Part shown: piece by piece, positions 4,764 to 4,837 of the stretch | How the letters are laid out: every line of letters starts with the position of its first letter | How positions within the stretch are numbered: position 1 is the first letter of the stretch | DNA from: Polaromonas sp. | GTDB lineage: Bacteria > Pseudomonadota > Gammaproteobacteria > Burkholderiales > Burkholderiaceae_C | DNA length: 12,151 nucleotides | Assembly: GCA_043721235.1 (NCBI GenBank) | Contig: JAYSRE010000068.1 | Location: 1-12,151 of the forward strand | Direction: 5' to 3' | The notes under the pieces: generated by a model | Told to the model about the DNA's origin: nothing | What the model saw: only the letters and a program-made list of their open reading frames with translations | Databases searched by the model: none | Made by a program: the position numbers and the translations under genes

Positions 4764-4837
4764 AACTGTGTAGCTCAGTCTGGTAGAGCAACGTGCTCAT
4801 CACACGTCTGTCGTGGGTTCGATTCCCACCGCAAGCG
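4764..4837 (+). ncRNA. tRNA-like (Y-RNA/YrlA-like) structured module embedded in the sigma-54 leader. It is not a functional tRNA gene.
   Basis: Manual cloverleaf: U8-A9 at 4771-4772. D-stem GCTC/GAGC (4773-4776/4786-4789) with D-loop AGTCTGGTA, where A14, G18G19 and A21 are all present. Perfect 5-bp anticodon stem (4791-4795/4803-4807) with loop CUCAUCA, giving U33 and anticodon CAU (4798-4800) but C37. 5-nt variable loop. Perfect 5-bp T-stem GTGGG/CCCAC (4813-4817/4825-4829) with T-loop TTCGATT. However, only 4 of 7 acceptor pairs form (4767-4770 with 4830-4833) and the 3' end is GGGC, not CCA. Confidence 0.6.

What the first reader, a model, noticed from the sequence alone, without database searches (positions are those of the whole stretch)
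4764..4837. Near-perfect tRNA-shaped module with a CAU anticodon loop but broken acceptor stem and no CCA, inside the rtc operon leader (Y-RNA-like tRNA mimic)
**What the sequence shows.** All elements needed for the tRNA L-shape are present:
- U8, A14, G18G19, A21, U33, G53, T54-T55-C56, A58 and C61.
- A 4-bp D stem, and perfect 5-bp anticodon and T stems.
- A 5-nt variable loop.
- An anticodon loop CUCAUCA that reads as CAU (Met/initiator-like), but with C37 instead of a purine.

The acceptor stem pairs at only 4 of 7 positions and is followed by GGGC, so it cannot be a chargeable tRNA.

**Context.** The element lies about 200 nt downstream of the sigma-54 promoter and about 300 nt upstream of the first ORF. 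It is therefore transcribed as part of the RtcR-controlled operon.

**Why it matters.** This combination is the hallmark of bacterial Y-RNA-like (YrlA) tRNA mimics, which are encoded with rtcBA in Salmonella. Here no Ro/Rsr gene is adjacent.

**Speculation.** The RtcR CARF domain is reported to respond to damaged tRNA fragments, and RtcB/RtcA act on tRNA-type breaks. An operon-encoded tRNA decoy with an initiator-like anticodon loop could act as an in-cis sensor or substrate. It might also be a processing site that separates a stable leader ncRNA from the mRNA.
Basis: partly seen in the sequence, partly recalled or inferred. Interest (0 to 1): 0.8.

Follow-up and report, generated by a model that had tools for sequence, protein, structure and literature searches.

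The report
Band-7-associated tRNA mimic, rtc leader
A conserved, tRNA-shaped but non-decoding RNA module sits in the transcribed leader of a slipin–RtcB RNA-repair operon; it is real and under selection, but it matches the "band-7-associated tRNA" predicted in 2016, so it is not new.

Summary
Window 4764-4837 (+) scores 43.8 bits against Rfam tRNA (threshold 29), has every claimed arm and tertiary nucleotide, pairs at only 4 of 7 acceptor positions and has no CCA.

It is not a chance hit or a decaying pseudogene. In about 75 of 81 slipin–rtcB loci from Burkholderiales it lies 300-460 nt upstream of the slipin gene, and it is the best-conserved part of the leader. The anticodon stem, T stem and inner acceptor stem covary. 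The short acceptor stem is a family trait.

The CAU "initiator-like" anticodon is not conserved. Relatives carry many other triplets, and Acidovorax and others have a GNRA tetraloop there.

It is not a YrlA member: 18 bits against a threshold of 69, no Ro60/Rsr gene, and normal rather than permuted arm order. Its context (RtcR/sigma-54 promoter, Band-7/slipin, RtcB, treble-clef zinc finger, RtcA) fits the "b7a-tRNA" predicted by Burroughs & Aravind (2016). That RNA was proposed as a YrlA analogue and has never been validated experimentally.

Extras found:
- a second tRNA-like module without a D arm, directly upstream;
- a conserved ~565-nt structured leader;
- tRNA arrays and a tmRNA-like RNA in related loci.

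The parts
2801..4408 (-). rtcR, a sigma-54 activator with an RtcR/CARF-type N-terminal domain, divergent from the operon
   Evidence: Pfam RtcR 7.9e-82 and Sigma54_activat 4e-49
4546..4561 (+). Sigma-54-type -24/-12 promoter motif TGGCACGTTGCCTGCA; inferred transcription start near 4572
   Evidence: The motif TGGCAY-N7-GCA lies 530-685 nt upstream of slipin in 39 loci, all with a divergent rtcR. A weak Rfam P11 hit here reflects only the promoter-like 5' end of that model.
4572..5135 (+). Structured 5' leader RNA of about 565 nt that contains both tRNA-like modules (ends inferred)
   Evidence: MFE z-score -3.6. RNAalifold on 15 leaders gives 102 pairs, 32 of them with compensatory changes. No + strand terminator-like site. 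Only short mechanical ORFs of 70 aa or less.
4700..4759 (+). Unit 1, a tRNA-like three-way junction without a D arm: closing stem GGCAU/AUGCC, linker GUGGUCAA, 10-bp hairpin, T arm CUAGG-UUCAAUU-CCUGG
   Evidence: Folds alone as drawn: -30 kcal/mol, z -3.3, 76% of the ensemble. A T arm is found at this position in 64 loci (58 distinct versions). The closing stem covaries: own 3' strand finds a complement in 53/58 against a mean of 25 when strands are swapped. T stem 1 has 4/5 pairs with double changes.
4760..4766 (+). Linker AACAAAC between the two modules; most relatives have ACCA here
   Evidence: CCA lies 5-13 nt after T stem 1 in 43/58 distinct loci. The block CCACCAC is conserved in type-B and Acidovorax loci. 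The motif is degenerate in the window.
4764..4837 (+). Unit 2, the finding: a full cloverleaf tRNA mimic (b7a-tRNA type) with a 4-bp acceptor stem and no CCA
   Evidence: Rfam tRNA 43.8 bits. R1 covariance model gives 86.6 bits here and 60-95 bits at the same position in most of the ~75 matching sources, lower (24-43 bits) in Variovorax and two other loci. Cloverleaf 85% paired against 36-45% in slid controls, with 14 pairs showing double changes.
4834..4854 (+). Hairpin directly 3' of unit 2 (AGCGGG...CCAGCU, one G-A mismatch in the window), followed by UUUCUUU
   Evidence: Pairs 299-303 with 315-319 of A4 show compensatory changes. Neither the window nor L002 gets a terminator call here.
5136..6275 (+). 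Slipin (SPFH/Band-7) gene, first ORF of the operon
   Evidence: Pfam Band_7 9.3e-29. Homologues are named slipin family / SPFH domain protein.
6312..7547 (+). rtcB RNA ligase
   Evidence: Pfam RtcB 8.1e-127
7532..7954 (+). Small treble-clef zinc-finger protein (zf_Tbcl); start codon uncertain
   Evidence: Pfam zf_Tbcl 2.7e-12
7954..9042 (+). rtcA RNA 3'-phosphate cyclase (likely start at the ATG at 7954 within ORF 7849-9042)
   Evidence: Pfam RTC 8.4e-69, with the domain starting at residue 45 of the longer ORF

Best explanation
The element is the tRNA-mimic core of a conserved, structured leader RNA of about 565 nt. The leader is transcribed from the RtcR/sigma-54 promoter together with slipin-rtcB-(zinc finger)-rtcA. 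[quoted passage not shown]

**Shown**
- It folds as a tRNA cloverleaf. The nucleotides that build the elbow, and the D-stem pairs, are invariant or nearly so.
- The anticodon, T and inner acceptor stems are kept by compensatory changes.
- The anticodon loop is free to vary and can even be a tetraloop.
- The acceptor stem is only 4-5 bp in every lineage, and nothing resembling NCCA follows it.
- It therefore cannot decode or be charged. What is selected is the L-shaped tRNA body.

**Inferred**
- It works as a structural tRNA mimic for the RNA-repair module, in the way proposed for YrlA. It could be a cofactor or scaffold for the slipin/RtcB proteins. It could also be an uncleavable decoy that competes with real tRNAs for tRNA-damaging nucleases.
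- tRNA-processing enzymes such as RNase P probably recognise it and cut it out of, or away from, the mRNA.
For: **Identity and shape**
- Rfam tRNA 43.8 bits; all canonical arms can be read directly.

**Conservation**
- The core 4771-4827 is the only part of the leader that blastn still finds in distant genera.
- A covariance model built from 39 loci hits about 75 of 81 sources at a fixed 300-460 nt upstream of slipin.

**Structure** (MAFFT alignment not fitted to the structure)
- 85% of cells are paired, against 36-45% when partners are slid by 1-3 columns.
- 14 pairs have changes on both sides: 5/5 in the anticodon stem, 3/5 in the T stem, 6/7 in the acceptor stem. 0 of 500 shuffles reach this.
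- A14, G18, A21, G53, U54-U55-C56 and A58 are invariant; U8 and G19 are conserved in at least 90% of the 39 loci.

**Not a decoder**
- Orthologues carry at least 10 different "anticodons" or GNRA tetraloops.
- Outer acceptor pairs 1-72, 2-71 and 3-70 are unpaired in 26-32 of 39 loci.

**Context**
- RtcR, Band_7, RtcB, zf_Tbcl and RTC are present.
- The sigma-54 motif is conserved, and there is no terminator call.

**Literature**
- b7a-tRNA was predicted next to Band-7 and RtcB and considered redundant with YrlA (10.1101/312249).
- The YrlA tRNA-like domain is not cut by the anticodon nuclease and was proposed to be a competitive inhibitor (PMC7790460).
Against: - There are no expression, processing or binding data for this RNA in any organism. 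The b7a-tRNA itself was never validated.
- The original description (Burroughs & Aravind 2016) could not be read. Equating the element with b7a-tRNA rests on a secondary description plus context.
- Thermodynamic folding of the isolated element, and of the whole leader, prefers non-cloverleaf pairings.
- A purely cis role (processing or stability) explains the same conservation.
- Variovorax keeps only a reduced version scoring 37-43 bits.
Confidence: 0.6

Rival explanations
1. It is a purely cis-acting processing or stability signal ("tRNA punctuation"). RNase P, RNase Z or RNase E cut at the tRNA-like modules. This separates the 5' leader from the slipin-rtcB mRNA and sets the mRNA's 5' end and half-life. 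The excised RNA has no function of its own.
For: - Two tandem tRNA-like modules lie in a leader, with a conserved hairpin right after unit 2.
- In type-B loci the same leader follows an array of real tRNA genes on the same strand, so it would be processed with them.
- YrlA is an RNase P substrate in vitro (PMC4201824).
Against: - RNase P needs only an acceptor/T-arm stack. That does not explain the invariant D stem, D loop and variable loop, or the maintained anticodon stem.
- The acceptor stem, the part RNase P measures, is the least conserved helix.
Confidence: 0.2
2. It is a cis sensor or substrate. The same nucleases that damage tRNAs cleave the leader's tRNA mimic. This gives a feed-forward signal to RtcR/CARF, or an in-operon substrate for RtcB/RtcA.
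For: - RtcR responds to tRNA fragments (PMC7790460).
- The module is co-transcribed with rtcB and rtcA.
Against: - The anticodon loop, the usual target of anticodon nucleases, is unconserved and is a GNRA tetraloop in many lineages.
- YrlA, the analogous mimic, is not cleaved by the Salmonella nuclease.
Confidence: 0.1
3. It is a YrlA-type bacterial Y RNA that binds a Ro60/Rsr protein encoded elsewhere.
For: - The D arm is almost the same as the YrlA consensus (GUAGCUCA..GGUAGAGC), which gives a weak RF02553 hit.
- It sits in the same kind of operon as Salmonella yrlA.
- GUCGAAAG at 5019-5026 fits the motif GNCGAAN0-1G.
Against: - It scores 18.1 bits against a gathering score of 69, and no YrlA hit appears in 16 related loci.
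- No TROVE protein is encoded in the window.
- The arm order is canonical, not permuted, and there is no terminal Ro-binding stem.
- The GNCGAA match is just a GAAA-tetraloop hairpin about 190 nt downstream.
Confidence: 0.03
4. It is a working tRNA, elongator or initiator Met-like, or some unusual decoder.
For: It scores above the Rfam tRNA threshold, and ARAGORN calls the orthologue a tRNA in many loci.
Against: - The acceptor stem pairs at 4 of 7 positions, GGGC replaces NCCA, and position 37 is C.
- ARAGORN makes no call in the window.
- The inferred identity changes from locus to locus, and some loci have tetraloops.
Confidence: 0.02
5. It is a decaying tRNA pseudogene, or the leftover of an integration or duplication event, with no function.
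For: - Related type-B loci carry tRNA arrays just upstream, a plausible evolutionary source.
- The acceptor stem is broken.
Against: - It keeps the same position and the same "defects" across many genera, with compensatory substitutions in three helices and invariant tertiary nucleotides.
- No integrase is found among the window's ten major ORFs.
Confidence: 0.02

Closest known systems
b7a-tRNA (band-7-associated tRNA), predicted by Burroughs & Aravind, Nucleic Acids Res 2016, as summarised in Wang et al. 2018 (bioRxiv 10.1101/312249)
   Same: It is a predicted ncRNA that strongly resembles a tRNA. It is encoded next to a Band-7/SPFH gene and RtcB, and was proposed to be functionally redundant with YrlA. 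The window has exactly this context, including the treble-clef zinc-finger gene.
   Different: No difference can be shown. The original alignment could not be read. I therefore cannot say whether the short acceptor stem, the free anticodon loop, the upstream module without a D arm or the long leader were already described.
YrlA (Rfam RF02553), the tRNA-mimicking bacterial Y RNA of rsr-yrlBA-rtcBA operons
   Same: - It is a tRNA mimic encoded in RtcR-controlled RtcB/RtcA operons.
- Its D arm is almost identical, and it has a canonical T arm and elbow nucleotides.
- It is neither a decoder nor chargeable as encoded.
   Different: - YrlA is circularly permuted: T arm, then closed acceptor hairpin, then D arm, with the ends forming a Ro-binding stem.
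- YrlA lies within 4 kb of rsr.
- Here the order is canonical, no rsr is present, and the model score is far below threshold.
Canonical bacterial tRNA (Rfam RF00005)
   Same: It has the cloverleaf, the D-loop/T-loop tertiary nucleotides, a 5-nt variable loop, and U33 in the 7-nt loop versions.
   Different: The acceptor stem is 4-5 bp, there is no discriminator-CCA, the anticodon is not conserved or the loop is a tetraloop, and the element is embedded in an mRNA leader.
Stress-induced tRNA array operons linked to HNH and rtcB genes (cyanobacterial L-arrays; Santamaria-Gomez et al. 2021, PMC8421152)
   Same: Related type-B loci (Aquabacterium, Piscinibacter, Ramlibacter and others) have 5-20 tRNA genes and an HNH-motif ORF directly upstream of the same leader, slipin and rtcB. 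In cyanobacteria the arrays neighbour HNH and rtcB genes and are co-regulated with them.
   Different: The window has no array. Its leader starts at an RtcR/sigma-54 promoter instead.
tmRNA tRNA-like domain and tRNAs lacking a D arm (comparison for unit 1 only)
   Same: Unit 1 has an acceptor-type stem stacked on a canonical T arm. A short GG-containing linker replaces the D arm, a long helix replaces the anticodon arm, and most relatives have an encoded ACCA.
   Different: There is no G3-U70 and no mRNA-like domain. ACCA is degenerate (AACA) in the window. No Rfam family matches.

Membership tests
b7a-tRNA (Band-7-associated tRNA-like RNA) | [quoted passage not shown] | tested here: met
   RF00005 43.8 bits against a gathering score of 29; cloverleaf supported by covariation
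b7a-tRNA (Band-7-associated tRNA-like RNA) | Encoded adjacent to a Band-7/SPFH domain gene | tested here: met
   Slipin (Pfam Band_7 9.3e-29) starts 299 nt downstream on the same strand
b7a-tRNA (Band-7-associated tRNA-like RNA) | Same gene cluster as RtcB | tested here: met
   rtcB at 6312-7547, Pfam 8.1e-127; the association holds in the related loci
b7a-tRNA (Band-7-associated tRNA-like RNA) | Sequence and structure agree with the published b7a-tRNA alignment | not testable with these tools
   Burroughs & Aravind 2016 (PMC5062991) is not held, and no Rfam family exists for it
YrlA / bacterial Y RNA (RF02553) | Reaches the Rfam YrlA gathering score | tested here: not met
   18.1 bits against 69, E 0.65; no hit in 16 related loci
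YrlA / bacterial Y RNA (RF02553) | Within about 4 kb of, and on the same strand as, a Ro60/Rsr (TROVE) gene | tested here: not met
   Pfam on the ten major ORFs of the 12-kb window shows no TROVE domain. The rest of the genome was not available.
YrlA / bacterial Y RNA (RF02553) | Permuted tRNA-like domain (T arm, closed acceptor hairpin, D arm) closed by a stem made of the 5' and 3' ends | tested here: not met
   Arms are in canonical order, D then anticodon then T. The stretch between T arm 1 and the D arm cannot form a hairpin. YrlA topology taken.
YrlA / bacterial Y RNA (RF02553) | GNCGAAN0-1G motif near the 5' end (putative Rsr contact) | tested here: inconclusive
   GUCGAAAG occurs at 5019-5026, but as a GAAA-tetraloop hairpin about 190 nt 3' of the element, not near a 5' end
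Canonical decoding tRNA | 7-bp acceptor stem followed by a discriminator and CCA (or a processable 3' end) | tested here: not met
   4 of 7 pairs, then GGGC. Outer pairs are unpaired in 26-32 of 39 orthologues.
Canonical decoding tRNA | 7-nt anticodon loop with an anticodon conserved among orthologues and a purine at position 37 | tested here: not met
   C37 in the window. Orthologues read as 10 different amino-acid identities or carry GNRA tetraloops.
Canonical decoding tRNA | Called by a tRNA gene finder | tested here: not met
   ARAGORN finds 0 genes in the window

The most novel reading that the evidence does not exclude
The tRNA mimic may be only one module of a larger, undescribed RNA. 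This would be a ~565-nt multi-domain leader carrying two tandem tRNA-derived modules.

RNase P cleavage at the 5' side of unit 2 would release the upstream mini-tRNA (the one without a D arm) with a genome-encoded ACCA 3' end. In some relatives a third, tmRNA-like RNA with G3-U70 and ACCA follows slipin.

The slipin-RtcB operon would then make its own set of tRNA-end and tRNA-body mimics. These would act as decoys or cofactors during tRNA damage. That goes beyond the single "b7a-tRNA" so far predicted.
Probability: 0.2. Interest if true: 0.65.

Novelty: already known. Interest (0 to 1): 0.35.

Why it matters
tRNA mimics encoded inside RtcB/RtcA repair operons (YrlA, b7a-tRNA) are a recurring feature that is still not understood mechanistically. 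Nobody knows what they bind or why RNA repair needs a tRNA-shaped RNA.

The comparative data here narrow what any mechanism must explain:
- Selection acts on the elbow, the D stem, the variable loop and helix geometry.
- Selection does not act on the anticodon or on a chargeable acceptor end.
- This argues for a body-recognising partner: slipin/RtcB, a processing or modification enzyme, or a nuclease being decoyed.
- It argues against decoding, charging, or acting as an anticodon-nuclease substrate.

The element itself is a rediscovery of a published prediction. Its value lies in corroboration and in the added anatomy (tandem module, long leader), not in novelty.

Tried and rejected
- **Rfam P11 hit.** The hit at 4534-4627 (18 bits) looked like a link to a validated Pseudomonas sRNA. 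It rests mainly on the sigma-54 promoter-like 5' end of that model. P11/NfiR is an NtrC-dependent sRNA near nasA. Rejected.
- **Thermodynamic folding.** Unit 2 alone, units 1+2 together, and the whole leader do not give the unit 2 cloverleaf. This was uninformative for unit 2. It confirmed unit 1.
- **MAFFT and RNAalifold across genera for unit 1.** The variable hairpin misaligned. I replaced this with an anchored complement search and a strand-swap control.
- **Phage or viral origin.** The phage collection gives only generic tRNA-Met similarity. No slipin relatives occur in IMG/VR.
- **Reading the primary b7a-tRNA paper.** It is not held, and text searches find only one citing preprint.
- **Post-tRNA hairpin plus U-rich tail as a terminator.** The scan calls no terminator in the window or in L002. 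In other genera the hairpin has no U tract.
- **YrlA-like alternative fold** using T arm 1 and D arm 2. The intervening sequence cannot form the required acceptor hairpin.

Full report
**What is in the window.**
The locus is a Polaromonas-like (Comamonadaceae) RNA-repair operon.
- rtcR lies at 2801-4408 on the minus strand.
- On the plus strand are slipin/Band-7 (5136-6275), rtcB (6312-7547), a treble-clef zinc-finger ORF (7532-7954) and rtcA (about 7954-9042).
- Between rtcR and slipin there is an AT-rich spacer, then a sigma-54 -24/-12 motif (TGGCACGTTGCCTGCA, 4546-4561), then about 565 nt with no credible ORF.

**Checking the observation.**
- Rfam's tRNA model matches 4767-4833 at 43.8 bits (threshold 29, E about 1e-6). 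The match is local (model positions 4-67), which reflects the broken outer acceptor stem.
- ARAGORN calls nothing in the window.
- Acceptor pairs 4-69 to 7-66 form and 1-72 to 3-70 do not. The 3' strand is followed by GGGC.
- Nearest-neighbour folding does not prefer the cloverleaf: -18.1 against -22.7 kcal/mol. The case for the fold has to be comparative.

**Comparative evidence.**
- I used an alignment of slipin homologues (A1) to fetch 80 loci from reference genomes. This choice did not depend on the RNA.
- The tRNA-like core is the most conserved stretch of the leader. It is the only part that blastn still detects in distant genera such as Aquabacterium, Piscinibacter, Acidovorax, Ramlibacter and Delftia.
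- A MAFFT alignment of 39 diverse copies (A2) was scored against the cloverleaf.
  - 85% of cells are paired, against 36-45% when partners are slid by 1-3 columns.
  - 14 pairs have changes on both sides: all 5 anticodon-stem pairs, 3 of 5 T-stem pairs, and 6 of 7 acceptor-stem pairs. No shuffle out of 500 reaches this.
  - The D stem is essentially invariant.
  - Outer acceptor pairs are unpaired in 26-32 of 39 sequences. The short acceptor stem is a conserved property, not decay.
- A14, G18, A21, G53, U54-U55-C56, A58 and most of the variable loop (CUGUC) are invariant; U8 and G19 are nearly so.
- A covariance model built from A2 (R1) finds the element in about 75 of 81 sources, 300-460 nt upstream of slipin. 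Most score 60-95 bits; a reduced form in Variovorax scores 37-43 bits.

**What is not conserved.**
- The anticodon loop varies. The window's CAU is shared by only some relatives.
- ARAGORN reads orthologues as Met, Ile, Val, Lys, Thr, Asn, Glu, Ala, Phe or Cys.
- In Acidovorax, Delftia and some Aquabacterium-type loci the 7-nt loop is replaced by a GNRA tetraloop on a covarying stem.
- This removes the basis for an "initiator-like" reading.
- It also argues against the element being a substrate mimic for sequence-specific anticodon nucleases.

**Transcriptional context.**
- The sigma-54 motif (TGGCAY-N7-GCA) is present 530-685 nt upstream of slipin in 39 loci, every one of them with a divergent rtcR.
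- No plus-strand terminator-like site lies between promoter and slipin in the window or in L002.
- The element is therefore very probably part of the RtcR-dependent transcript. This is inferred, not shown.

**Is it a YrlA?**
No.
- RF02553 gives 18.1 bits against a threshold of 69, driven by the near-identical D arm.
- No YrlA hit occurs in 16 related loci.
- No TROVE/Rsr protein is encoded in the window.
- YrlA has a permuted order (T arm, closed acceptor hairpin, D arm) with the RNA ends forming the Ro-binding stem. Here the order is canonical.
- The GNCGAAN0-1G match at 5019-5026 is a GAAA-tetraloop hairpin far downstream, so I treat it as inconclusive.

**What it is.**
- Wang et al. (bioRxiv 10.1101/312249) summarise a prediction by Burroughs & Aravind (2016). 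[quoted passage not shown]
- This RNA strongly resembles an authentic tRNA and appears interchangeable with YrlA. It had not been validated experimentally.
- The window matches this description on every testable point.
- The primary paper is not held, so sequence-level identity could not be checked. From memory, its abstract speaks of SPFH/Band-7 modules with a cognate novel tRNA-like molecule. That recollection is a lead, not a test.
- I therefore file the finding as already known, as a computational prediction. The data here corroborate it independently.

**Likely mechanism.**
- Shown: selection maintains the L-shaped tRNA body (elbow, D stem, variable loop, helix lengths). It does not maintain a decoding or chargeable tRNA.
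- Inferred: a partner that reads the tRNA body recognises the module.
- The best-supported analogy is YrlA. Its tRNA-like domain is modified by tRNA enzymes and cleaved by RNase P. It is not cut by the anticodon nuclease that activates the operon, and it was proposed to inhibit that nuclease competitively.
- A tetraloop in place of the anticodon loop fits an uncleavable decoy or a scaffold.
- A purely cis processing or stability role remains a serious rival. It explains the tandem arrangement well but explains the invariant D arm less well.

**Further anatomy (beyond the finding).**
- Directly upstream, at 4700-4759, lies a second tRNA-like module that lacks a D arm.
  - It has a closing stem GGCAU/AUGCC, a GG-containing linker, a 10-bp hairpin and a canonical T arm.
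  - It folds as drawn on its own: -30 kcal/mol, z -3.3.
  - Its T arm is found in 64 loci. Its closing stem covaries: 53/58 against a mean of 25 in swap controls.
  - In most genera it is followed by ACCA, immediately before unit 2's acceptor strand. In the window this is degenerate (AACA).
- The whole leader is conserved and structured: z -3.6, and 32 of 102 RNAalifold pairs have compensatory changes.
- Rfam has no family for any of it beyond the tRNA hit.

**Related loci.**
- Loci fall into two architectures.
  - Type A includes the window: rtcR, sigma-54 promoter, leader, slipin, rtcB.
  - Type B (Aquabacterium, Piscinibacter, Ramlibacter and others) has an array of 5-20 ordinary-looking tRNA genes, an HNH-motif ORF, and then the same leader, slipin and rtcB. 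No rtcR lies within 4 kb.
- Type B echoes the cyanobacterial tRNA L-arrays, whose neighbouring HNH and rtcB genes are co-regulated with the array.
- Fourteen loci also carry a ~232-nt tmRNA-like RNA just after slipin. It has a 7-bp acceptor stem with an invariant G3-U70, a T arm and ACCA. It is 86-98% identical across genera. The window does not have it.

**Verdict.**
- The element is real, conserved and almost certainly functional.
- It is a member of an already predicted class (b7a-tRNA), not a YrlA and not an initiator-like decoy.
- Interest is moderate to low for the finding as stated.
- The tandem module, the long leader and the tmRNA-like neighbour in relatives are the parts that might be new.

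Noticed in passing
window 4700-4759 (+): A second tRNA-like module without a D arm sits directly upstream of the finding. It has a closing stem, a GG-containing linker, a 10-bp hairpin and a canonical T arm (UUCAAUU). It is conserved and covaries across genera. In most relatives it is followed by ACCA immediately before unit 2; the window has AACA.
   Followed up: partly
window 4572-5135 (+): The whole ~565-nt leader is a conserved multi-hairpin RNA: 5' hairpins, a conserved AUGCCGCG block at 4671-4678, a post-tRNA hairpin and a 3' domain ending just before an unpaired A-rich RBS. 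A long-range CCGC/GCGG pairing is predicted but invariant, so it is unproven. No Rfam family covers it.
   Followed up: partly
window 4693-4704 and 4755-4761: In the Polaromonas group two alternative 5' strands (UUGGUAU at 4693-4699, or GGCAU at 4700-4704) can each pair with the same 3' strand (AUGCCAA). This could be coincidence or a conformational switch.
   Followed up: no
L017-L020, L022-L025, L027-L030, L032, L033, L041, L042, L045, L053, L057 (about 0.8-3.5 kb upstream of slipin): Arrays of 5-20 canonical-looking tRNA genes on the operon strand are followed by a ~190-aa ORF with HNH-like motifs (e.g. L025 2873-3445) and then the same leader, slipin and rtcB. No rtcR or sigma-54 motif is nearby. 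This resembles the cyanobacterial tRNA L-arrays linked to HNH and rtcB genes (PMC8421152).
   Followed up: partly
L011 5170-5405 and 13 other loci (L006, L007, L010, L012-L014, L036, L038, L052, L070, L073, L076, L080), just downstream of slipin: A ~232-nt tmRNA-like RNA with a 7-bp acceptor stem (invariant G3-U70, one compensatory pair), a T arm, an ACCA tail, a long helix and a 60-nt invariant core. It is 86-98% nt identical across genera, much more conserved than the neighbouring slipin protein. ARAGORN calls it tmRNA, but Rfam tmRNA gives only 24 bits (threshold 47). It is absent from the window.
   Followed up: partly
L007 4476-5219, L046 5159-5902: Many related loci have an extra conserved 247-aa ORF (MK.KKLTARERR...) between slipin and rtcB. 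The window lacks it. Its function was not examined.
   Followed up: no
L036 and L038 (both from Rhizobacter sp. UKL202a, CP050901.1): One genome carries two copies of the leader plus slipin unit with identical tRNA-like elements. One copy has rtcR and a sigma-54 motif. The other has a ~530-aa ORF (not characterised) about 0.5-2 kb upstream and rtcB downstream.
   Followed up: no
window 4534-4627 (+): A weak Rfam hit to Pseudomonas sRNA P11 (18 bits, threshold 70) arises mainly because the 5' end of that model looks like a sigma-54 promoter. It incidentally supports reading 4546-4561 as a sigma-54 promoter. It is not homology to P11.
   Followed up: yes
window 7532-7954 and 7849-9042 (+): The zinc-finger ORF overlaps the end of rtcB by 16 nt. 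The longest rtcA ORF overlaps the zinc-finger ORF by about 100 nt, and the RTC domain begins at residue 45. The real rtcA start is therefore probably the ATG at 7954.
   Followed up: no
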